Assembly: GCA_030617105.1 (NCBI GenBank)
Contig: JAUWWC010000003.1
Location: 1 to 57,222 of the forward strand
DNA: 57,222 nucleotides
From: Candidatus Nealsonbacteria bacterium
GTDB lineage: Bacteria; Patescibacteriota; Minisyncoccia; Minisyncoccales; GWA2-38-27
Direction of reading: 5' to 3'
The notes under the pieces: generated by a model
What the model saw: only the letters and a program-made list of their open reading frames with translations
The model's database searches: none
Told to the model about the DNA's origin: nothing
Shown: positions 5,967 to 54,115 of the stretch, in pieces
How positions within the stretch are numbered: position 1 is the first letter of the stretch
How the letters are laid out: each line of letters opens with the position of its first letter
Translations under genes and position numbers: made by a program

Positions 5967-8362
5967 ATAACAAAGTTTATTAGTTTGCCAGAGATAAATA
6001 TTGTTTTTTTAATCTCTTTGCCTCTTGTATATTTTAGCACTTTGTCTCGCGATAAAGCAATTTTCTTAGCTTCTTTTTCTGAAATATCAGCTTCAACTTC
6101 TATTTTATCACGAACCTTGCCATTAATCTGAATAACTAAAGTAATCTTTTTTTCTTTAACCAATTTTGAATCATATTTTGGCCATTTCTGCTCACAGCAC
6201 ATTCCTTTAAATCCTGCTCTCTCCCAAAGCTCCTCTGTTATATGCGGAGCAAAAGGACTTAATAGAATTAAGAATAATGAATAATCTTTTTCAGAAATCT
6301 CTTTTTGCTTTTCTAATCCATTAGCTAAAATCATTAAAGCAGAAACAGCAGTATTAAACTTCAGATTCTCAATATCTTCTGAAACTTTTTTAATTGTCTT
6401 GTGAATTAATTTTGGATTTTGGATTTTGGCATTTGGGTTTTGGATTTTTTCAGAAAGTTGCCAAACTTTCTGGAGGAATCTTCTAACTCCCTTGACTCCT
6501 TTAGTGTCCCAGGGAATCATCTGTTCAAAAGGACCCATAAACATTTCATAAATTCTCATAGCATCAGCTCCATGTTCTTTTATAACTTGTTCAGGATTAA
6601 TGACATTACCTTTTGACTTAGACATCTTAATTCCTCCCTCACCAAGAACTATTCCATGAGAAGTCCTTTTTTTATATGGTTCTGGCCCAACTCCTCTTGG
6701 TACAGCTCCAATATCCCATAAGAATTTATAAATAAATCGAGAATACAATAAATGCAAAGTAGTATGTTCCATCCCTCCATTATACCAATCCACTGGCATC
6801 CATTTTTCAAGGAGCTTAGCTCCTGCTAACTTCTTATCATTTTGAGAATCGCAATAACGAAGATAGTACCAATTAGAACCAGCCCAGTTTGGCATCACAT
6901 CTGTTTCCCGACGGCCGGCATTGCCGCACTCAGGACAAGCTACTTTTATCCAAGTTTTAACTTTTGCTAAAGGCGACTCACCGCTCTTGGTTGGTTTGTA
7001 TCCCTTAACCTTTGGCAATTCCACTGGCAAATCTTTTTCAGGAACTGGCTGCCAGCCGCACTTCTCGCATTTTATCATTGGTATTGGCTCGCCCCAATAC
7101 CTCTGTCTGGAAAAAATCCAATCCCTCAACCTATAATGAACCGCTGTCTTAGCAGAACCTTTTCTAGTCAACCATTCAGTTATCCTTTGTTTGGCTTGTT
7201 CTGACTTCATTCCAGTAAATCTGCCAGAATTAATTAAAATGCCTTCTCCTTCATAAGCTTGTTTTGAGGGATCATATTTAGAATCTTTTGGCTTGATAAC
7301 TTCAATAATAGGAAGATTATATCTTTTAGCAAAATCAAAATCACGCTGATCATGACCTGGCACAGCCATTATAGCGCCTGTGCCATAATGCATTAAAACA
7401 TAATCAGCTATAAAAATAGGGATTTTTCTGTTATTAACCGGGTTTGTGGCTTTAATGCCTTTTAATTCTATACCTGTTTTTTCTTTATCTTCTGCAATTC
7501 TTTCTTTCTCTATCTTCTTTTTTGATTTTTCAATATAATCTTTAACTTGTTTATAATTTCTAATTTTATGTTTAAGCTTTTCAATCAATGGATGCTCTGG
7601 AGCTAATACTAAATATGTACAGCCAAACAAAGTATCAGGCCTGGTAGTAAACACGGGAATTGGAAACTTTATCTCAGCTCCCTCGCTTCTTCCTATCCAT
7701 TCTTTTTGAGAAATCTTAACTCTTTCTGGATAATCAACCTTATCTAAGTCCTGAATTAACCTGTCAGCATATTTTGTAATCTTCAAGAACCATTGTTCTC
7801 TTTCTTTTCTTGTTGCCTTTTTCCCGCAGCGCTCGCATTTCCCGTCAATAACCTCTTCATTTGCTAAACCAATTTTGCAGGATGGACACCAATTAATCGG
7901 CATTTTAGCTTTGTAGGCCAGACCTTTTTTAAATAATTGAATAAATATCCATTGAGTCCATTTATAATATAATGGGTCAGTGGTATTAATCTCTCTTTTC
8001 CAATCAAAAGAAAGACCCAGATTTTTCTGCTGACGTTTGAAATTAGTTGTATTTTTCTTAGTGGCAATTGCTGGATGAATACCGGTTTTAATAGCATAGT
8101 TTTCAGTAGGCAGACCAAAAGCATCCCAGCCCATTGGAAACAAAACATTAAAACCCTGCATTCTTCTTTTCCGAGCTAAAATGTCTAAACCAATATAGCT
8201 TCTACAATGGCCAACATGAAGTCCTTCACCAGAAGGATAAGGAAACTCCACCAAAACATAATATTTTGGCTTTTTTGATTTATCTAAAGCTCTAAAAACA
8301 TCCATCTCCTCCCATATTTTCTGCCACTTTTTCTCAATTTTCTCTGGTCTATACTTTTCCAT
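5963..8362 (-). CDS. leuS: Leucine-tRNA ligase
   Basis: FPYPSG.GLHVGH, FTTRPDT and KMSKSKGN motifs; VIQINGKVR C-terminus. Confidence 0.98.
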   Translation of the reverse strand: MEKYRPEKIEKKWQKIWEEMDVFRALDKSKKPKYYVLVEFPYPSGEGLHVGHCRSYIGLDILARKRRMQGFNVLFPMGWDAFGLPTENYAIKTGIHPAIATKKNTTNFKRQQKNLGLSFDWKREINTTDPLYYKWTQWIFIQLFKKGLAYKAKMPINWCPSCKIGLANEEVIDGKCERCGKKATRKEREQWFLKITKYADRLIQDLDKVDYPERVKISQKEWIGRSEGAEIKFPIPVFTTRPDTLFGCTYLVLAPEHPLIEKLKHKIRNYKQVKDYIEKSKKKIEKERIAEDKEKTGIELKGIKATNPVNNRKIPIFIADYVLMHYGTGAIMAVPGHDQRDFDFAKRYNLPIIEVIKPKDSKYDPSKQAYEGEGILINSGRFTGMKSEQAKQRITEWLTRKGSAKTAVHYRLRDWIFSRQRYWGEPIPMIKCEKCGWQPVPEKDLPVELPKVKGYKPTKSGESPLAKVKTWIKVACPECGNAGRRETDVMPNWAGSNWYYLRYCDSQNDKKLAGAKLLEKWMPVDWYNGGMEHTTLHLLYSRFIYKFLWDIGAVPRGVGPEPYKKRTSHGIVLGEGGIKMSKSKGNVINPEQVIKEHGADAMRIYEMFMGPFEQMIPWDTKGVKGVRRFLQKVWQLSEKIQNPNAKIQNPKLIHKTIKKVSEDIENLKFNTAVSALMILANGLEKQKEISEKDYSLFLILLSPFAPHITEELWERAGFKGMCCEQKWPKYDSKLVKEKKITLVIQINGKVRDKIEVEADISEKEAKKIALSRDKVLKYTRGKEIKKTIFISGKLINFVI

Positions 8363-22496: not shown

Positions 22497-24013
22497 TTAC
22501 ATCTTTTCTGGGCTGGAAAGACCCATTAAATCTAAAGTATTTTTAAGAATGCTTTGAGTTGCCAAAATCAAAGATAATCTGGCTTGGCTTAATTCTTTAT
22601 CTTCAGTAAGAACTCTGCAGTTTTTATAAAACTTATGAAAACTCTCAGCTAAATCAATAGCATATTGCGGTATTCTCTGAACCTGATAATCTTTTGCAGT
22701 GTCTTCAATAATTTCTGGAAACCTAATCAACTGCTTAATCAAATCTAATTCGCTTGAATGATTTAGCAATTTTGAATTTTGAATTTTGAATTTTGAATTT
22801 GTTTGTAATTTGGAATTTGTTATTTGGGATTTCTTAAGTATGTTGCATATTCTTGCATAAGCGTACTGTACATAATAAACAGGGTTTTTCTGTGACTTTT
22901 CTTTAGCTAAACTTAAATCAAAATTCAAATGACTCCCCGAATTTCTTGTTAAAAAGAAAAACCGAGCAACATCCAATCCAACTTCATCAATTAATTCTTC
23001 CAGGGTTATATAAGTACCTGTTCTTTTGGACATCCTGACCTGCTTGCCTTTTTCAAAAAGCCGAACCATTTGCATAATAATAAAATCTACCTGTTCTTTC
23101 TTATAACCCAAAGCTTTAACCACGGCTTTCATTCTTCCTATATATCCATAATGATCAGCTCCCCAAAAGAAAACTAACTTGTCAAAACCTCTTTTAAATT
23201 TATTCTTTAAATAAGCAATATCAGAAGAAAAATAAGTTTTCTCGCCATCTGCTTTTACTAATACCCTATCCTTATCATCTCCAAACTTGCTTGATTTAAA
23301 CCACAAAGCCCCTTCTTTTTCATAAGCTAATTTTTTCTTTTTCAGCCAATTCAAGATTTTATCAACTTCCTTGCTTTTATACAAACTATTTTCAGAAAAC
23401 CAAACATCAAACTTAATTTTTAGTTTTTTTGTAATTATTTTTTGGTTTTCTTTTTGAATTTGCAAAGCTGTTCTCTTCTCGCCTTTGTAAAGGCCTTTTT
23501 TCAAATCTTCTACTTGTTTACCACGATCGTTAACATAAAACTCGCGAAATACATTATATCCTGCTTTTTCTAAAACATTTGACAAAACATCTCCGCAAAA
23601 CCCTCCACGTCCATTTCCCAAAGTCAAAGGACCAGTAGGATTTGCTGAAATAAATTCAACATTTATTTTTTGCCTTTCCCTATTTTCAAATCTCCAAACT
23701 TCTCTTTTTCTTTCAAAATGTTCCCTACTTGCTTTTGCAAATACTTTCTTGAAACAAAAAAATTAATAAAACCCGGCTTAACAACTTCGACTTTGTCGAG
23801 GAATTTCGAATTTCGAATTTCGAATTTCGAATTTATTAAATTGGCTATCTTCATTGGATCTTCTTTTCCAATTACCATCGCCACATTCGTGGCATAATCC
23901 CCGTGTGTTTTTTCTCTTGGTTCCTCAACCAAAACTCCAGAAACCTTAAATCCAAGTTCCTTTATCGCTTTTTCTACTAATTTTCTAATATCATCCCTAA
24001 TCATTATTTCCAT
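22497..24013 (-). CDS. argS: Arginine-tRNA ligase, split by a 1-nt frameshift in an A6 run at 23666-23671
   Basis: 5' ORF has HGDYATNVA and PGFINF; the -1 frame continues INVEFISANPTGPLTLGNGRG...MSKR...YVQYAYAR...PEKM. Confidence 0.93.
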
Positions 24014-24067
24014 CTTACCCTATTTTCTTCAAAAATTCAAAAAACAGAGGCCCGTCCTCCGCAAAAG

Positions 24068-24144
24068 CTTGACAGATTTGAGAATATGCGATAAACTGTA
24101 AATATCGTGAAAAACTAAAATAGCAACTTAAAAATTTGAAAGGA
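24068..24144 (+). repeat. Promoter/leader direct repeat, family 1, copy 1
   Basis: 76/77 identical to 25022-25098; contains TTGACA-17-TAAACT and GAAAGGA. Confidence 0.95.
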
Positions 24145-24155
24145 GGTGCTTTACA

Positions 24156-24428
24156 ATGAATATTGTTCTTTATATCATCGCATTCGTTGTTATCCTTATC
24201 GTTTCTGTTTTGATAAATTCATGGGAGTACGGAAGTACGCGCAACCGACTTCTTGAACAAATCAAAAATAGTTACCAAGAATATAATGTCACTTCCGAAA
24301 CTTTCCATAATAACGACTATGTCTATGGTACTCGGTTTATCGCCACCTTAGTGAAAAAAAATGACCCAAATTGCAGAATTAATGTTGTCAACAGCAACGA
24401 TACAGGAATAAAGGAAATTTCTTTGTGA
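24156..24428 (+). CDS. Hypothetical protein with N-terminal TM helix
   Basis: AGGAGG SD; own promoter; hairpin after the stop. Confidence 0.75.
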   Translation: MNIVLYIIAFVVILIVSVLINSWEYGSTRNRLLEQIKNSYQEYNVTSETFHNNDYVYGTRFIATLVKKNDPNCRINVVNSNDTGIKEISL

Positions 24429-24434
24429 AATAAA

Positions 24435-24530
24435 GTGCCGAGAACAGTTCTCGGCACATTTTTTATTGCAGAAAATACTACGAGAACTGTTCTCGTAGTG
24501 ATTAAAATGGAAGAGAACTGTCCTCTTCCA
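24435..24530. repeat. Three 23-bp palindromes with core GAGAAC-W-GTYCTC
   Basis: 24435-24457, 24477-24499 and 24508-24530; outer arms differ but stay complementary. Confidence 0.9.
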
Positions 24531-24531
24531 A

Positions 24532-24750
24532 TTATTTTTTCTTAAAATCTTCTTCTGTTAATTGTGCCTGATGTAAAATAGATTTAAAAGTTCCATAAGG
24601 AATCTCTTTCTTGTTAGCAGGAACTATAACTGTTAAAATCTTCTTTCCAAATTTACGAAATTTTACATGACTGCCTTTTTGAGATATATAAACAAAGCCC
24701 TTCTTTTGAAGGACTTTAATAATTTCAGTAGATGAATAAAGCTTAGGCAT
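24532..24750 (-). CDS. hicA: HicA family toxin
   Basis: GF...QKGSH.K, VP...KEI..GT..SIL.QA. Confidence 0.93.
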   Translation of the reverse strand: MPKLYSSTEIIKVLQKKGFVYISQKGSHVKFRKFGKKILTVIVPANKKEIPYGTFKSILHQAQLTEEDFKKK

Positions 24751-24961
24751 GATTGAGAGATAAAGTAACTAATTCTGGTCTCTCAACTTTAGGCAAATGA
24801 ACTATTTTCTCATTTTCAAAGTATAATTCCAAAGCTTCATCCAAATTATCTAAAGCTTCTTTTTTGGTCTTGCCGAAACTAGATACATCAACATTAAGAC
24901 ATTGGGCAACATAATACTTGCCTTCTTTCCAAACTACATTTTTTAAGTTTATTTTACGCAT
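24743..24961 (-). CDS. hicB: HicB family antitoxin, short form without a DNA-binding domain
   Basis: YVA.C......S.GKT..EAL.NL.EALELY. Confidence 0.92.
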   Translation of the reverse strand: MRKINLKNVVWKEGKYYVAQCLNVDVSSFGKTKKEALDNLDEALELYFENEKIVHLPKVERPELVTLSLNHA

Positions 24962-25021
24962 ATATTATTTATTACTAACTATTTTAATTTTATCAAAACC
25001 CAAGAAATAAGTCAATAAAAA

Positions 25022-25098
25022 CTTGACAGATTTGAGAATATGCGATAAACTGTAAATATCGTGAAAAACTAAAATAGCAACTTTAAAATTTGAAAGGA
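25022..25098 (+). repeat. Promoter/leader direct repeat, family 1, copy 2
   Basis: 76/77 identical to 24068-24144. Confidence 0.95.
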
Positions 25099-25103
25099 AA
25101 GAA

Positions 25104-25343
25104 ATGATGATTGAAGAACTTTACAAAATATCAAAAGTATTGTTTATGGGTTCATTCCCTACCGCGCTTGGGAGGATTGGGGTTGTTTGGCTTCTTTCCT
25201 GCTGGATTGTATGGATTATTGTATCAATAAGATACAAAAATCTAACGATTTCTACTACTGTGGGTCTGATTGGTGTCATAGGTTTTATCTCAGCAGTGCT
25301 AATATCTGTGTATATCAATCAGCCATTTACGTGGAAAACCTAA
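25104..25343 (+). CDS. Small hypothetical membrane protein
   Basis: Two hydrophobic helices; AAAGGA SD; terminator downstream. Confidence 0.7.
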   Translation: MMIEELYKISKVLFMGSFPTALGRIGVVWLLSCWIVWIIVSIRYKNLTISTTVGLIGVIGFISAVLISVYINQPFTWKT

Positions 25344-25367
25344 ATTGAAAATCAGGAACAAATCTTC

Positions 25368-25398
25368 GAAGGCATCAAAATTGATGCCTTCTTTTTTT
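25368..25398 (+). terminator. Intrinsic terminator
   Basis: gaaggcatcaa-aa-ttgatgccttc followed by T7. Confidence 0.8.
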
Positions 25399-25422
25399 AT
25401 TGAATTATGATAATATAAAGTA

Positions 25423-25872
25423 ATGAAAATCTTAGCTGAAAATAGAAAAGCGAGGTTTGATTATGAAATCCTGGAAAGGTTTGAAGCAGGCATGGTTTTG
25501 ATTGGCCAAGAAGTCAAATCAATAAAATCAGGAAGAATGAGTTTAAAAGGCTCTTATGTGACGCTAAGAGGAGAAGAGCCGTATTTAGTCGGAGCTAATA
25601 TCCCTGCTTATCAGCCAAAGAACATTTCTCCGGATTATGAGCCAGAGAAACCAAGAAAGCTTCTTCTGAATAAATCAGAAATTAAGCATTTAATCGGTAA
25701 AACAAAGGAAAAGGGCTTGACTTTAGTGCCCTTAAAAGTGTATACTAAGAAAGGAAAAATAAAGCTTGGGTTTGGAATAGGAAAAGGAAGAAAGAAAGCT
25801 GATAAAAGAGAATTAATTAAAAAAAGAGAAACAGAAAGAGAAATAGACAGAGAATTAAAATCACGGGGATGA
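25423..25872 (+). CDS. smpB: SsrA-binding protein
   Basis: NRKARFDY, EAG.VL.GQEVKS, RKLLL and DKRE motifs. Confidence 0.97.
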   Translation: MKILAENRKARFDYEILERFEAGMVLIGQEVKSIKSGRMSLKGSYVTLRGEEPYLVGANIPAYQPKNISPDYEPEKPRKLLLNKSEIKHLIGKTKEKGLTLVPLKVYTKKGKIKLGFGIGKGRKKADKRELIKKRETEREIDRELKSRG

Positions 25873-26185
25873 ATAGTTTCGACAGAAGTTTTTTGTCAAA
25901 ATAGAGCAGGTAAAATATTCTCAAATAAGTGCCAACTTGTTTAAGAAACCCGCGTTAGCTTTTGCTTAACGCCGTCAAGATTACCGATTCTCGCTAAGTA
26001 ATCTTTGGCGTGATAATAGCGAGATAGATAGTTCTTTTTGTCTCAGAAAAACTATCAAAACAAACGAGACTAAGGTGTTGGAATTTTGTCTGTTTCCAAT
26101 TTAACACTCTAAAACTAAAACAGACTAAACCTGTAGAACTATTTTGATAAAACTTTTGGATGCGAGTTCGCCCTCGCCATCTCCA
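25865..26185 (+). ncRNA. ssrA: tmRNA; tag reading frame 25931-25969 encodes ANLFKKPALAFA*
   Basis: GGGGATG/CATCTCC-A acceptor stem with G3:U; TTCGAC near the 5' end; GCGAG/CTCGC T-stem; AATAAGT before the resume codon; follows smpB. Confidence 0.95.
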
Positions 26186-26187
26186 CA

Positions 26188-26697
26188 GTGCAAAGAAAAC
26201 CATTGGTCAACAATCGAATAAGAGCTAGAGAAGTAAGACTAATTGATGAAACTGGAAAGCAATTAGGAGTTTTGGCGTTAGAAAAAGCGCTCCAAATAAC
26301 CAGGGAGCGCGATTTGGATTTAATTCAGGTTACTGAAAAAGTTGAGCCGCCTGTTTGCAAAATAATGGATTATGGAAAATATCTTTACCAGTTAAAAAAG
26401 AAAGAAAGATCAGCTAAACATCATAAAGGCGGTGAACTCAAAGGAATAAGATTGACTTTTGGGATTTCTGAACATGACTTAGAAACAAGGACAAAGCAAG
26501 CAGAAAAGTTTCTAAAAACAGGAAATAGGGTAAGAATAGAGATGAAATTAAGAGGCAGGCAAAAAGCGCTTCAGGGATTTGCTAGAGAAAAGATAAGGAA
26601 ATTCCTGGAAATCTTGGAAAAAACAATCCCAATAAAAATAGAAAGGGAATTAAAAAGACAACCAAGAGGATTAACAATGATTATATCTAAAAAGTAA
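26188..26697 (+). CDS. infC: Translation initiation factor IF-3
   Basis: N.RIRAREVRLID, PPVCKIMDYGKY; precedes rpmI-rplT. Confidence 0.96.
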   Translation: MQRKPLVNNRIRAREVRLIDETGKQLGVLALEKALQITRERDLDLIQVTEKVEPPVCKIMDYGKYLYQLKKKERSAKHHKGGELKGIRLTFGISEHDLETRTKQAEKFLKTGNRVRIEMKLRGRQKALQGFAREKIRKFLEILEKTIPIKIERELKRQPRGLTMIISKK

Positions 26698-37489: not shown

Positions 37490-37777
37490 TTACTCAATAA
37501 TTGCTAATATATCTTCTTCTTTAGCAATCAAATATTCTTTATCGCCGACCTTTATTTCATTTGGACCATATTTGGTAAATAAAACTTTGTCTCCTGGTTT
37601 TACTTCCAAAGGAATAACTTTTCCAGCTCTTTTTTGACCTGGGCCAACAGCAATCACCCGGCCTTGTTCAGGTCTTTCTTTCTCAGCTGTGTCTGGAAGC
37701 AAAATCCCAGCTTTTGTTTTTTCCTCCTCTTTTATCGGCTCAATTAATATATGATCAGATAATGGTTTAATGTTCAT
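37490..37777 (-). CDS. groS: Co-chaperonin GroES
   Basis: IKPL.D, GILLPDTA.KE.P..G.V.AVG.G. Confidence 0.98.
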   Translation of the reverse strand: MNIKPLSDHILIEPIKEEEKTKAGILLPDTAEKERPEQGRVIAVGPGQKRAGKVIPLEVKPGDKVLFTKYGPNEIKVGDKEYLIAKEEDILAIIE

Positions 37778-37788
37778 AAAATTATAAT

Positions 37789-37862
37789 GCGAATCTACGA
37801 ATGATATACGAATGTTGCGAATAATTTATTCGCGGCATTCGCATTTAATTCGCGTCATTCGG
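37789..37862. repeat. Mirror array of 4x CGAAT then 4x ATTCG in the groES leader
   Basis: CGAAT at 37790, 37798, 37809 and 37818; ATTCG at 37828, 37837, 37848 and 37857. Confidence 0.85.
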
Positions 37863-37934
37863 ATTATGTTATATTTTTTAATATCTATCATTTTACCCAC
37901 CCAAAGATATTTGTCAAGTCTTTGTCAAGCCCTA

Positions 37935-37987: not shown

Positions 37988-38293
37988 TTAAACAAGGCTT
38001 AAAAATAAAGCTCGCTCAAACTCTTCTAGGCTGCAATTGATCTTTACTTCCACTGGATCCGATATGTGAGAATCTATCGAGACTGAATTCTCTTGGTAAT
38101 CAATGGTAATAGTTATTTTTTCTTCTCCTAATTCATAAACAACTTCCTCTTTTTTGTTTGTTAAAACGTCCTTAAGCGCCAGTTTTGGGATGCTCCTGAA
38201 TTTTGTTTCGATACCCATGACGCAAAACCTAAAACGAATCATAGAGTCTATGTCAACACGTCGAGTTCCATTTTGTTGATCTCTTACTATCAT
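37988..38293 (-). CDS. Hypothetical protein; start MIVRDQQ
   Basis: AAGGAG SD within the repeated leader precedes ATG 38293. Confidence 0.7.
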   Translation of the reverse strand: MIVRDQQNGTRRVDIDSMIRFRFCVMGIETKFRSIPKLALKDVLTNKKEEVVYELGEEKITITIDYQENSVSIDSHISDPVEVKINCSLEEFERALFLSLV

Positions 38294-38298
38294 TTCTG

Positions 38299-38391
38299 AT
38301 CTCCTTTTATTAAATTTTGAAATTACATTACATACAGCAACGCACTGCAATGTTTATACACTATCACACATCCCTGCTCCTGTCAAGCCCA
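38299..38391 (-). repeat. Promoter/leader direct repeat, family 2, copy A
   Basis: 85/93 identical to 39695-39787; TTGACA-17-TAGTGT and AAGGAG. Confidence 0.93.
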
Positions 38392-39131: not shown

Positions 39132-39689
39132 CTATTTAATCTTTAGCAATCCTCGCAATTCTGGGATAGACATTTTGTTATAGCCAGCTCTTAAAACAAA
39201 ACTCTGTCTTTCTACGTCAAGTTCCTCTCTTTCTTTTTTGCTCATTGATTCTTCAAATCCTAGGTCGCATCGGAAAAGTCCCTCTCTTATCAATTCACAT
39301 TTTTCTGTACACGCTGAGTAACCGGCCACAAGTTTATCCGTTTCATCTAAAACAATTTCATCTTCTTTCGACCAAGCAGGTATGCAAAAAACTAAAATTT
39401 TAGTTACCTCTCTTGGAATAAAATAATGAGCTGTATTGGGTGGAATAAGTATTAATGTTCCAGCTTTTATTTCATAAACGTTGGCTCCTATAACCAACTT
39501 CCCCTTGCCTTCAATGATAAAATAAAACTCAGTTGTAATTTTATGGTAATGAGAAACACCGGGAGCACTCATTGTAACTAAGGCTGTGCTTGCTTTGTCA
39601 AAATCTTGTTTTGAGCTTAATACTCTAATCTCCCCACAAATATCTTTTATTGGCTGAACTTTCTCAACAGATATCACAATCTCTTCCAT
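39132..39689 (-). CDS. Cupin domain protein
   Basis: HYH...TEFYFIIEG.G...G......PPNTAH. Confidence 0.85.
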   Translation of the reverse strand: MEEIVISVEKVQPIKDICGEIRVLSSKQDFDKASTALVTMSAPGVSHYHKITTEFYFIIEGKGKLVIGANVYEIKAGTLILIPPNTAHYFIPREVTKILVFCIPAWSKEDEIVLDETDKLVAGYSACTEKCELIREGLFRCDLGFEESMSKKEREELDVERQSFVLRAGYNKMSIPELRGLLKIK

Positions 39690-39694
39690 TATTT

Positions 39695-39787
39695 ATCTCC
39701 TTTTATTAAATTTTAAATTTACATTACATACAGCAACGCACTGCAATGTTTATATCCTATCACACATCCCCAGCCCTGTCAAGCCCA
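39695..39787 (-). repeat. Promoter/leader direct repeat, family 2, copy B
   Basis: 85/93 identical to 38299-38391; TTGACA-17-TAGGAT. Confidence 0.93.
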
Positions 39788-53128: not shown

Positions 53129-54115
53129 TTACGCCTGTTCTACAATAGCTTTTTTGAGCTTTTTTATTATCTCAGGATTCTCTTTTAAAAACGCTTTTGC
53201 TCCTTCCATTCCTTGTCCTAATTTCTGATTATCGTATTGATACCAGCTTCCTGATTTCTTAATAATATCCTGCTTTAATCCAACATTCAAAAGATCTGCT
53301 ATATATGATATTCCTTCATTATAATAAATATCAAACTCAGTAACTTTAAAAGGAGCAGCCACTTTATTCTTAACTATTTTTGCCTTAATTCTGCTTCCAA
53401 TAATCTCATCTCCGTGCTTTATCTGACCAACTCTTCTTAAATTAATCCTTACTGAAGAATAAAACTTAAGAGCTAACCCTCCCGGTGTAACTTCTGGATT
53501 CCCCCATTGAACTCCAATCTTCATTCTAGTTTGGTTCAAGAATATAACAGAGGTTTTGGTTTTAGCTACAATTGAAGCTAACTTTCTAAGAGCAGCAGAC
53601 ATTAATCTTGCCTGAAGCCCTATTTGAAACTCGCCTATTTCTCCAGCAATTTCTGCCTTAGGAGTCAAAGCAGCTACTGAATCAATAACAATAACATCTA
53701 CTTTGCTTGATCTAATCAAGCTCTCAACAATCTGTAATGCCTGTTCTCCTGAATCTGGCTGAGAAATTAAAAGGTCATTAGTATTAACTCCAATTCTCTT
53801 GGCATAATCAGGATCCAAAGCATGTTCTGCATCTATAAAGGCGGCTACTCCGCCTTTTTTTTGGGCTTCAGCGCAGATATGCAACGCCAACGTGCTTTTT
53901 CCTGTGGATTCAATCCCATAAATCTCAATTACTCTTCCTCTGGGGATTCCACCTATCCCTAAGGCTCTATCCAAAGAAATAGAACCAGTTGAAATAGCAT
54001 TAACATCAACACGACCTACCTCTCTAAGCTTCATAATCGCGCCTTCGCCAAAGCGCTGTTTAATCTCATCTATTGTTTCTTGCAGCTCGTTTTTTTCTTC
54101 TTTTTCTTTTGCCAT
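53129..54115 (-). CDS. recA: Recombinase A
   Basis: [22 protein letters not shown] and KNKVAAPF motifs. Confidence 0.99.

What the first reader, a model, noticed from the sequence alone, without database searches (positions are those of the whole stretch)
24060..25400. Second locus with the same architecture: a 77-bp duplicated promoter/leader, two unrelated membrane orphans, hicBA between them
Seen: 24068-24144 and 25022-25098 differ at one base, and each has TTGACA-17-TAAACT plus an SD. Identity stops right at the SD. Each copy drives a different small TM protein followed by a hairpin, and hicB-hicA lies between them in the opposite orientation. This repeat is unrelated in sequence to the 38-39 kb one, so the cassette-TA-cassette layout occurs twice independently. 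Inference: recombination between the copies would excise cassette 1 plus hicBA, which the toxin would penalise, much as TA cassettes are thought to stabilise superintegron arrays. The locus is next to smpB-ssrA, a common integration hotspot.
Basis: partly seen in the sequence, partly recalled or inferred. Interest (0 to 1): 0.82.

Follow-up and report, generated by a model that had tools for sequence, protein, structure and literature searches.

The report
Duplicated promoter in a variable gene islet
A tiny uncultured bacterium carries two near-identical copies of one promoter-plus-leader, each driving a different small membrane protein with a toxin-antitoxin pair between them, most likely because two alternative versions of a variable gene slot were stacked by recombination.

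Summary
24063-24144 and 25017-25098 match at 80 of 82 bases and are the only two copies in the 543-kb genome. Each holds TTGACA-17-TAAACT, an unstructured A-rich leader and a Shine-Dalgarno site, and identity ends inside that site. R1 drives ORF-A (90 aa) and R2 drives ORF-B (79 aa). Between them lie three REP-type hairpins and hicB-hicA on the other strand with its own promoter.

The repeat is the native promoter-leader of a variable small-ORF slot between argS and smpB-ssrA in a Nealsonbacteria-like CPR family. It is single-copy in two relatives, each time before a different ORF. The interval is empty in 11 of 24 family loci and holds varied cargo in 13, five with a toxin gene.

This genome looks like two slot versions stacked: argS-R-ORF-terminator, as in G002, plus hicA-hicB-R-ORF-B, as in metagenome relatives. 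R1 and R2 share three bases that differ in three relatives, so duplication or gene conversion was recent.

No integrase or attC is present, and the islet is not at the ssrA 3' end. Stabilisation by the toxin-antitoxin pair is plausible but untested; a third locus on contig C11 keeps four repeated promoter-terminator units without any such pair. The closest known analogue is the PeSL regulatory cassette of T4-type phages.

The parts
22497..24013 (-). argS, read as two ORFs (22497-23627 and 23663-24013) because of a 1-nt shortfall in an A-run; left border of the islet
   Evidence: Pfam Arg_tRNA_synt_N, tRNA-synt_1d and DALR_1. The gap between the two parts is 38 nt here and 39 nt in relatives.
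24044..24062 (-). Hairpin h plus T-run on the minus strand just upstream of argS. It corresponds in position and build to the hicA terminator of relatives where hicBA abuts argS.
   Evidence: Terminator scan. Same place in G002, in G041 after hicA and in an X4 contig joining 24044 to 24504.
24063..24144 (+). R1: promoter (TTGACA-17-TAAACT), about 50 nt of unstructured leader, and the start of the Shine-Dalgarno site
   Evidence: Fold z-score +0.31. 88% identical to the single copy in G002 at the same place.
24156..24428 (+). ORF-A, 90 aa: N-terminal membrane anchor plus a domain of about 60 aa
   Evidence: No Pfam, PHROG or NCBIfam match. One distant homologue, P0005, of the same build.
24435..24530 (.). 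Three REP-type hairpins (24435-24457, 24477-24499, 24508-24530) with core GAGAACNGTYCTC. They act as two-way terminators between ORF-A and hicA and are the proposed junction of the two stacked modules.
   Evidence: The same hairpin flanks a Y1 (IS200-like) transposase gene in G001 and G005. There are only 2 exact cores in the own genome, both here.
24532..24750 (-). hicA toxin gene (72 aa)
   Evidence: PF07927, 64.2 bits; phrog_353 'toxin'.
24743..24961 (-). hicB-like antitoxin gene (72 aa, short form), overlapping hicA by 8 nt
   Evidence: DUF7387, 29.2 bits. 65-85% amino-acid identity to hicB next to hicA in G020, G041, G012 and G033.
24987..25015 (-). hicBA's own promoter-like site (TTGACT-17-TAAAAT with TG)
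   Evidence: Homology with the G020 hicBA module runs to 25015 and stops at the R2 border.
25017..25098 (+). R2: second copy of the promoter-leader
   Evidence: A source-run contig bridges hicB into R2 (24166-25051, no differences). A 97%-identical contig from another study covers 24736-25062.
25104..25343 (+). ORF-B, 79 aa, two hydrophobic helices (by eye)
   Evidence: Homologue P0002 at 73% identity, with conserved N- and C-terminal motifs.
25368..25391 (+). Intrinsic terminator of ORF-B
   Evidence: 10-bp stem, then T7.
25423..26188 (+). smpB (25423-25872) and tmRNA (25865-26188); right border of the islet
   Evidence: PF01668, 175 bits; RF00023, 113 bits.

Best explanation
R is the sigma-70-type promoter, unstructured A-rich leader and ribosome-binding site that natively heads a variable small-ORF slot in the argS|smpB-ssrA intergenic space of a Nealsonbacteria-like CPR lineage. 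This genome holds two alternative fillings of that slot in tandem.

- Module 1 is argS-h-R1-ORF-A-REP terminator. This is the layout seen in same-genus G002.
- Module 2 is REP hairpin-hicA-hicB (own promoter)-R2-ORF-B-terminator-smpB. This is the layout suggested by contigs of close relatives, where hicA abuts argS and hicB abuts R.

The two were most likely stacked by recombination between two allelic versions of the islet, taken up by natural transformation. The event would have had a homologous anchor on the argS side and an illegitimate or REP-associated join in the hairpin cluster at 24435-24530.

The two R copies have since been homogenised by gene conversion, or the event is very recent. 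Functionally, both copies should drive constitutive expression of two unrelated small membrane proteins, each insulated by its own terminator, while hicBA is transcribed divergently from R2.

What is shown: the repeat, the gene content, the variability of the interval, single copies of R in relatives, and the shared distinctive bases of R1 and R2. What is inferred: promoter activity, the recombination route, and any anti-deletion role of hicBA.
For: - R is single-copy at the same place in G002 (88% identity, continuous with the argS-side hairpin h) and in G005 (75%). Each time it precedes a different ORF, and similarity ends at the Shine-Dalgarno site. An X2 contig again shows the leader followed by another ORF from 24146 on.
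- Of the 24 family loci where argS neighbours smpB (of 30 smpB loci fetched), 11 have intervals of 29-100 nt and 13 have 206-1409 nt with differing cargo. Five of those 13 carry a toxin gene.
- ORF-A's terminator is matched by a G002-like contig that then runs on to smpB (joint 24467 to 25423; sequence).
- The hicB|R junction occurs at 97% identity in run X3, from another study. An X4 contig joins hairpin h directly to the hicA end.
- hicBA lies in the same interval and orientation in G041 and G012.
- At 25040, 25042 and 25043, R1 and R2 both read A, G, C, whereas G002, X3 and X4 read G, A, T.
- recA and comEC are present in the genome.
- The leader is unstructured (z-scores +0.31 and +1.36), and Rfam gives no cis-regulatory family over the repeats.
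Against: - No RNA data were available, so promoter activity and the transcription start are consensus-based only.
- The (b)-type layout is pieced together from separate short Logan contigs of differing depth (13.2, 20.9 and 4.48 in X4). These need not come from one genome.
- The near identity of R1 and R2 would also fit an in-situ duplication or insertion of a circle through R.
- Homology-facilitated illegitimate recombination is rare where it has been measured (passages of PMC5361080).
- No relative in hand carries ORF-A itself in a single-module context.
Confidence: 0.6

Rival explanations
1. PeSL-like mobile regulatory cassette. R acts as a portable recombination substrate. A 954-bp circle (R-ORF-A-hairpins-hicBA) arose by exchange between R copies and was inserted by a single crossover at the resident R of an argS-R-ORF-B-smpB chromosome. 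Excision and reinsertion continue at a low rate.
For: - A single crossover through R gives exactly this layout, with near-identical repeats.
- The same genome has a four-unit array of promoter-terminator repeats before unrelated ORFs on C11 and a second two-copy promoter repeat at 38-39 kb.
- In G020, hicBA is also flanked by local direct repeats, one containing the -10 and leader of hicB.
- PeSL mini-circles are documented in T4-type phages (abstract of PMC2839356).
Against: - There are only 2 copies of R in the genome, and single copies in relatives always at this one locus.
- R itself carries no stem-loop.
- No circle junction can be distinguished from the tandem form in 31-mer contigs.
- Contig depths of the two incoming junctions are equal (7.63 and 7.53), so no excess of either form is visible.
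Confidence: 0.2
2. Assembly artefact. Two strain variants of the islet, or a chromosome plus a small circle, were threaded into one contig through the shared 82-nt sequence.
For: - The source is a metagenome with several related organisms in the same run: G002-like and empty-site relatives appear as 'joints'.
- Logan 31-mer contigs break inside the 62-nt identical core and cannot phase the two sides.
Against: - All four flanks occur as exact contigs in the likely source run at similar depth: 23900-24097 at 7.63, 24166-25051 at 7.53, and 25054-25500 at 9.2.
- The hicB-to-R junction exists at 97% identity in a run from another study.
- Contig ends of this assembly overlap by exactly 127 nt (C4/C9 and C13/C5). 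This suggests a 127-mer graph, in which an 82-nt repeat is spanned by single words taken from reads. That step is inference.
Confidence: 0.07
3. Integron-like or integrase-driven cassette system next to ssrA, with hicBA as a stabilising cassette as in Vibrio superintegrons.
For: There is superficial likeness: small ORFs, hairpins after the ORFs, a toxin-antitoxin pair inside, and a neighbouring tmRNA gene. Toxin-antitoxin cassettes are known to police excision in chromosomal integrons (abstract of PMC13108822).
Against: - The genome has one tyrosine recombinase, on contig C8 and not linked to this locus.
- Each ORF has its own promoter rather than a shared Pc.
- The hairpins are REPs that flank a Y1 transposase in relatives, not attC sites.
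- The islet lies upstream of smpB, and ssrA is followed directly by infC.
Confidence: 0.03

Closest known systems
PeSL regulatory cassettes of T4-type phages (Arbiol et al. 2010, PMC2839356; Comeau et al. 2014, PMC4122927; abstracts seen)
   Same: Repeated strong sigma-70-like promoter units flank small genes of unknown function in hypervariable regions. Recombination between nearby copies would delete or circularise the intervening gene or genes.
   Different: The host here is a bacterial (CPR) chromosome, not a phage. R has no stem-loop inside the repeat, although the C11 units do. R has only two copies. No mini-circle has been shown.
Promoter reuse / putative mobile promoters in prokaryotes (Nijveen, Matus-Garcia and van Passel 2012, PMC3575422; abstract and opening text seen)
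   Same: Highly similar promoter regions sit upstream of non-homologous genes within one genome, with no association to a known mobile element.
   Different: Here both copies sit 954 bp apart in one variable islet, and the origin can be traced to the native promoter of that slot.
Stacked orphan immunity-gene arrays in Vibrio T6SS clusters (Kirchberger et al. 2017, PMC5361080; passages seen)
   Same: At a locus with a conserved upstream anchor, a newly acquired variant is added rather than exchanged, and the old variant is kept. The mechanism proposed there is homology-facilitated illegitimate recombination.
   Different: The cargo here is small membrane proteins plus hicBA, not effector-immunity pairs, and only two modules are stacked.
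Toxin-antitoxin cassettes in chromosomal integrons (Richard et al. 2024, PMC13108822; abstract seen)
   Same: A promoter-bearing toxin-antitoxin module lies inside a segment that recombination between flanking repeats could excise, so its loss could be penalised.
   Different: There is no integrase, no attC and no promoterless cassettes. Any deletion would be RecA-type between 82-nt repeats. The effect has not been tested.
REP elements with REP-associated Y1 transposases (RAYTs); the name is recalled, and the family assignment rests on PF01797
   Same: The three hairpins match the palindromes that flank a Y1_Tnp gene in G001 and G005.
   Different: No cognate transposase was found in this genome; the best match is 27% identity on C16. 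Only a handful of copies exist, three of them at this locus.

Membership tests
HicAB type II toxin-antitoxin | Toxin with a HicA domain | tested here: met
   PF07927, 64.2 bits against a cut-off of 27; phrog_353 'toxin'. A G-S-H motif is visible in the translation; its catalytic role is recalled, not tested.
HicAB type II toxin-antitoxin | Adjacent, co-oriented, overlapping partner gene of HicB type | tested here: met
   The 72-aa ORF overlaps hicA by 8 nt. DUF7387 scores 29.2 against a cut-off of 27.9; UPF0150 is only weak. The pair is conserved together in four relatives.
HicAB type II toxin-antitoxin | Antitoxin with a DNA-binding domain for autoregulation | tested here: not met
   The protein is only 72 aa, and Pfam reports no HTH or RHH family.
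HicAB type II toxin-antitoxin | Toxicity of HicA and its neutralisation by HicB | not testable with these tools
   This needs expression assays.
Integron / superintegron cassette array | Adjacent IntI-type tyrosine recombinase | tested here: not met
   PF00589 has one match in the genome, on contig C8.
Integron / superintegron cassette array | attC sites after promoterless cassettes read from a common promoter | tested here: not met
   Each ORF has its own promoter copy and terminator. The hairpins belong to a REP family tied to a Y1 transposase in relatives. attC core motifs were checked by eye only.
ssrA-targeted genomic island | Insertion at the 3' end of the tmRNA gene, with an integrase and a repeat of the ssrA end | tested here: not met
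   tmRNA is 25865-26188 and infC starts at 26188. The variable DNA lies upstream of smpB. There is no integrase in the window region.
PeSL-type regulatory cassette | Repeated strong sigma-70-like promoter | tested here: met
   10 of 12 consensus matches in both copies. Activity was not measured.
PeSL-type regulatory cassette | Stem-loop terminator as part of the repeated unit | tested here: not met
   R folds no better than shuffled sequence, and the terminators lie outside the repeat and differ. The feature is met by the C11 units.
PeSL-type regulatory cassette | Mini-circles or unit-wise gain and loss between close relatives | tested here: inconclusive
   31-mer contigs cannot tell a circle or deletion from the tandem form. 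Relatives do differ in slot content.
Promoter reuse (putative mobile promoter) | Near-identical upstream regions before non-homologous genes in one genome | tested here: met
   ORF-A and ORF-B differ in length and build and have different sole homologues; they were not aligned to each other.
REP / Y1-transposase (RAYT) system | Palindromic repeats flanking a Y1 transposase gene | tested here: inconclusive
   Met in G001 and G005. In this genome no cognate gene was found, and there are only 2 exact cores.

The most novel reading that the evidence does not exclude
Ultra-small CPR genomes use portable promoter-leader (and promoter-terminator) units, as T4-type phages use PeSLs. RecA-mediated exchange between copies would shuffle, stack, excise and re-insert small genes of unknown function as R-bounded units or mini-circles. 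The argS|smpB slot would be one such exchange point, where the swap boundary sits at the ribosome-binding site, and resident toxin-antitoxin pairs would counter-select loss of the segment they sit in.
Probability: 0.2. Interest if true: 0.7.

Novelty: new variant of a known kind. Interest (0 to 1): 0.45.

Why it matters
CPR bacteria have very small genomes, yet large numbers of small unknown membrane proteins that differ between close relatives. This locus shows in detail how such genes may turn over: a fixed promoter-leader 'socket' beside essential genes, with interchangeable small ORFs and toxin-antitoxin pairs as cargo. In this genome two fillings are kept side by side. If the same logic holds at the other promoter-repeat loci of this genome, it would extend the phage PeSL idea to cellular genomes. 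It would also give a concrete, PCR-testable model for accessory-gene flux, and for the anti-deletion role of toxin-antitoxin pairs, in organisms that cannot yet be grown alone.

Tried and rejected
- **40-mer scan.** An exact 40-mer of R in metagenome contigs gave 0 hits.
- **Degenerate leader pattern.** It found only G002-like and G005-like contigs: 2 metagenome and 2 genome records. No further slot variants could be read.
- **Structured leader RNA or riboswitch.** Rejected. Fold z-scores are +0.31, +1.36 and -0.07, and Rfam at E up to 1 gives nothing over the repeats; the only sub-threshold hit nearby covers the hairpin cluster.
- **R as a dispersed mobile element.** Rejected. There are 2 copies in the genome, and among 40 relatives R was found once each in G002 and G005.
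- **Phage origin of ORF-A or ORF-B.** There are no PHROG hits. The viral-contig scans gave nothing for ORF-A and one 22-residue match for ORF-B. That match lies at the end of an unrelated 227-aa protein and was rejected.
- **Deletion or circle evidence.** Only Logan 31-mer contigs were served. They break in the identical core, so neither form could be seen or excluded. The 'skips' of 1385 and 1409 nt in X1 come from other species with empty intervals (12 differences in 83-95 nt), not from deletion alleles.
- **Steps judged low in value.** No structure or complex prediction was run, given orphan 79-90-aa membrane proteins and a textbook toxin-antitoxin pair.
- **Literature.** No paper supplements were consulted.
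Full report
**Observation.** The window is contig C9 of a 542,946-base, 17-contig genome rated 96% complete. A same-genus relative's contig is titled Candidatus Nealsonbacteria, so this is a CPR/Patescibacteria organism.

The repeat finder gives 24063-24144 and 25017-25098 as an 82-nt direct repeat with 2 mismatches, 954 nt apart. A whole-genome search finds only these two copies.

Both copies carry TTGACA-17-TAAACT, with 10 of 12 consensus positions, followed by about 50 nt of A-rich leader and GAAAGGA. After that the sequences diverge, GG versus AA, a few bases before the two start codons. The leader folds no better than shuffled sequence, with z-scores of +0.31 and +1.36. Rfam reports no cis-regulatory family over it. 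It therefore reads as a plain promoter with an unstructured translation leader.

**Anatomy.** From left to right the locus holds:
- argS on the minus strand, ending at 24013.
- A hairpin with a T-run on the minus strand (h, 24044-24062).
- R1.
- ORF-A (24156-24428, 90 aa), with an N-terminal hydrophobic helix and a domain of about 60 aa.
- Three hairpins with the core GAGAACNGTYCTC (24435-24530), which score as terminators in both directions.
- hicA (24532-24750; PF07927, 64 bits) and hicB (24743-24961; DUF7387, 29 bits) on the minus strand, with their own TTGACT-17-TAAAAT promoter at 25015-24987.
- R2.
- ORF-B (25104-25343, 79 aa, two hydrophobic helices by eye).
- A strong terminator (25368-25391).
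- smpB (25423-25872).
- tmRNA (25865-26188; 113 bits). ARAGORN missed it.
- infC.

ORF-B has one homologue at 73% identity, with conserved termini. ORF-A has one distant homologue of the same build, at 37% identity and E 1e-4 against 1.84 billion representatives. Both therefore look like real genes of very small families. Neither has a Pfam, PHROG or NCBIfam match.

**Is it an assembly artefact?** Only Logan 31-mer contigs could be laid. In the run that holds 93% of the sampled words, exact contigs cover three stretches:
- 23900-24097, at depth 7.63.
- 24166-25051, at depth 7.53. This one bridges hicB into R2.
- 25054-25500, at depth 9.2.

They break exactly where the 62-nt identical core begins and ends, as expected for 31-mers. 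They confirm every flank at similar depth but cannot phase the two sides.

A run from another study (X3) has a contig 97% identical over 24736-25062. The hicB-to-R junction therefore exists in another population.

Contig ends of this assembly overlap by exactly 127 nt. This suggests a 127-mer graph, in which an 82-nt repeat is spanned by single read-derived words; that step is inference. I put misassembly at about 7%.

**The interval in relatives.** smpB was found in 36 of 39 family genomes, counting G000. Of the 30 loci fetched, 24 have argS divergently next to smpB and 6 do not.

Among those 24, the argS-smpB interval is 29-100 nt in 11 and 206-1409 nt in 13; this genome has the longest. The expanded intervals carry different cargo:
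- G041: hicBA, at 85% and 81% amino-acid identity.
- G012: hicB, a frameshifted hicA, and a DUF2683-like plus RelE/ParE-like pair.
- G001, same genus: a different HicA (PF07927, 39 bits) with an unnamed partner.
- G010: a DUF2683-like plus ParE/RelE-like pair.
- G045: a lone 73-aa antitoxin-like ORF (similarity judged by eye).
- Others: NYN-like (by eye), PHP-like (by eye), a secreted protein, and small ORFs.

Five of the 13 expanded intervals thus hold a toxin gene. The interval is a genuine accessory-gene hot spot. However, it lies upstream of smpB, no integrase is nearby, and ssrA is followed directly by infC.

**Where R comes from.** Among 40 relatives searched with the whole region, R was found in two. 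In same-genus G002 it is 88% identical and continuous with hairpin h and argS. In G005, another genus, it is 75% identical.

In both it is single-copy and drives a different ORF: a 68-aa two-helix protein in G002 and a 91-aa soluble protein in G005. Similarity again ends at the ribosome-binding site. Pattern scans of the metagenome and genome collections returned only G002-like and G005-like contigs. An X2 contig shows the leader up to 24146 followed by yet another ORF. R is therefore the native promoter-leader of a slot whose ORF is replaced between lineages.

**Two layouts that add up to this one.** G002 shows argS-h-R-ORF-terminator-smpB. A G002-like contig in the source run matches ORF-A's terminator and then runs on to smpB (joint 24467 to 25423 with 27 other letters, sequence).

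Contigs of X4 and X3 show the other layout. Hairpin h is joined directly to the hicA end (24044 to 24504), and hicB is followed by R. An ORF-B relative at about 85% identity is also present. G041, G012 and G001 also have a hicAB-type pair abutting argS in this orientation.

This genome equals the left part of the first layout plus the whole of the second, joined in the hairpin cluster. The caveat is that the X4 pieces have different depths and may not be from one genome.

**Recent exchange between the copies.** At 25040, 25042 and 25043, and at the equivalent R1 positions, both copies read A, G, C. G002, X3 and X4 read G, A, T there, which gives them a consensus TATAAT -10.

X3 is about 98% identical over the hicB part of its contig but only about 89% identical over R. 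My count is 5 differences within 25017-25062, listed (table 3), out of 10 differences over the 327-nt contig. R1 and R2 each carry one private change relative to G002.

Either the duplication is younger than the split from X3's organism, or gene conversion keeps the copies alike. The genome has recA in the window (53306-54088) and comEC.

**The hairpins.** The middle hairpin recurs at 93-100% identity at many sites in relatives. In G001 and G005 three copies flank, or lie within, a 232-aa gene with a Y1_Tnp domain (PF01797, 45 bits). This is the pattern of REP elements with their transposase.

This genome has only two exact cores, both here, and a few degenerate copies. No cognate transposase was found; the best match is 27% identity on C16.

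**Other promoter repeats in the genome.**
- **38-39 kb locus.** The repeat there (101 nt, 89%) is a minus-strand promoter-leader. One copy sits before a cupin gene. The other sits before a 101-aa orphan upstream of groES-groEL. A DUF5678 plus retropepsin-like pair lies between, in the same orientation. Its toxin-antitoxin status is unverified. The repeat was not found in 25 relatives.
- **C11 array.** Self-BLAST also shows four units of about 230 nt on C11. Each unit is a terminator hairpin, a spacer, TTGACA-17-TATAAT, a leader and a Shine-Dalgarno site, with 81% mean column identity. Each precedes an unrelated small ORF, and no toxin-antitoxin pair is present.
- **Promoter family.** The C11 promoter core occurs 12 times in the genome at up to 5 substitutions, against 0 for the reversed control.
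- **G020.** hicBA there is flanked by local direct repeats that include the -10 and leader of hicB.

Promoter reuse before unrelated small genes is thus a recurring trait here, with or without toxin-antitoxin pairs.

**Mechanism.** My best reading, at 0.6, is recombinational stacking of two allelic fillings of a promoter-headed slot, followed by concerted evolution of the two R copies.
- The route I favour is uptake of a conspecific variant. One crossover would be homologous on the argS side. The other would be an illegitimate or REP-associated join at 24435-24530. This resembles what was proposed for stacked immunity genes in Vibrio T6SS clusters (passages of PMC5361080).
- The main rival, at 0.2, is single-crossover insertion of a 954-bp circle through R, in the manner of PeSL mini-circles (abstract of PMC2839356).

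It has a precedent in integrons (abstract of PMC13108822). Against it:
- hicBA occurs here in other genera without flanking repeats.
- hicA decays in G012.
- hicBA is absent from 21 of the 24 intervals.
- The C11 array persists without any toxin-antitoxin pair.

I give the anti-deletion role about 0.3.

**Novelty.** Promoter reuse in prokaryotes has been catalogued (PMC3575422; abstract seen). PeSLs and toxin-antitoxin policing of integron arrays have been described. Searches for 'Nealsonbacteria' (41 papers; listing only) and for Patescibacteria with toxin-antitoxin or genomic island surfaced nothing on repeated promoter units. One paper on Patescibacteria gene exchange has no occurrence of 'promoter'. 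These few searches do not prove absence from the literature. I rate the finding as a new variant of a known kind, of moderate interest.

**Limits.**
- No RNA data were available.
- No raw reads were available.
- Transmembrane calls were made by eye.
- The (b)-type parent is inferred from short contigs.
- The functions of ORF-A and ORF-B remain unknown beyond their being small membrane proteins.

Noticed in passing
window 23625-23666: argS is split into two ORFs. The stretch between the two conserved parts is 38 nt here and 39 nt in relatives, and the shortfall lies in an A-run. This is either a homopolymer error in the assembly or a real frameshift in an essential gene.
   Followed up: partly
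window 23800-23830 and 22762-22832: Tandem 7-nt repeats (ATTTCGA and ATTTTGA types) lie inside the argS coding sequence and translate to NSKF-like peptide repeats. The N-terminal domain of argS is far more diverged between same-genus genomes (48-67% identity) than the rest of the protein (80-89%).
   Followed up: no
window 24435-24530; L058 (G001:C7) and L059 (G005:C8): The hairpins belong to a REP-like family conserved at up to 100% identity over 26 nt across genera. In G001 and G005 it flanks a 232-aa Y1 (IS200-like) transposase gene. This genome lacks that gene and has only a few copies of the hairpin.
   Followed up: partly
G000 contig C11:1590-3870 (L056): An array of four to five conserved units of about 230 nt (terminator hairpin, spacer, TTGACA-17-TATAAT, leader and Shine-Dalgarno site). 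Each unit precedes an unrelated small ORF: 117-aa membrane, 66 aa, 116-aa coiled coil, 71 aa, and 132-aa beta-solenoid-like.
   Followed up: partly
G000 genome-wide (C1, C8, C10, C11, C13, C17): Twelve promoters share a 30-nt core that includes the spacer, each within 5 substitutions; the reversed control gives 0. The conserved spacer hints at a regulon or a special promoter class. Parts of the core also occur in relatives.
   Followed up: partly
window 38291-38391 and 39687-39787: A second promoter-leader repeat, on the minus strand. One copy heads a cupin gene. The other heads a 101-aa orphan just upstream of groES-groEL. A DUF5678 plus retropepsin-like aspartyl protease pair lies between them.
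   Followed up: partly
window 37774-37872 and G000:C5:19936-20034: A 100-nt repeat at 89% identity lies immediately upstream of groES and recurs on contig C5. It may be a shared heat-shock control region.
   Followed up: no
L004 (G020:C3) 1336-2174: The hicBA copy of G020, in another genomic context, is flanked by local direct repeats of 55 nt (87%), 41 nt (76%) and 21 nt (100%). The last includes the -10 and leader of hicB.
   Followed up: partly
window 25865-25872: By the Rfam coordinates, the tmRNA gene starts 8 nt before the smpB stop codon. ARAGORN did not report this tmRNA.
   Followed up: no
G000:C5:74779-74903 and 75641-75765; C16:5871-6045 and 6953-7127: Further nearby direct repeats. 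One duplicates the 3' end of an L33-like gene plus its downstream sequence. The other covers the shared N-termini and upstream regions of two paralogous membrane proteins with differing C-terminal parts, next to a Y1-transposase-like gene.
   Followed up: no
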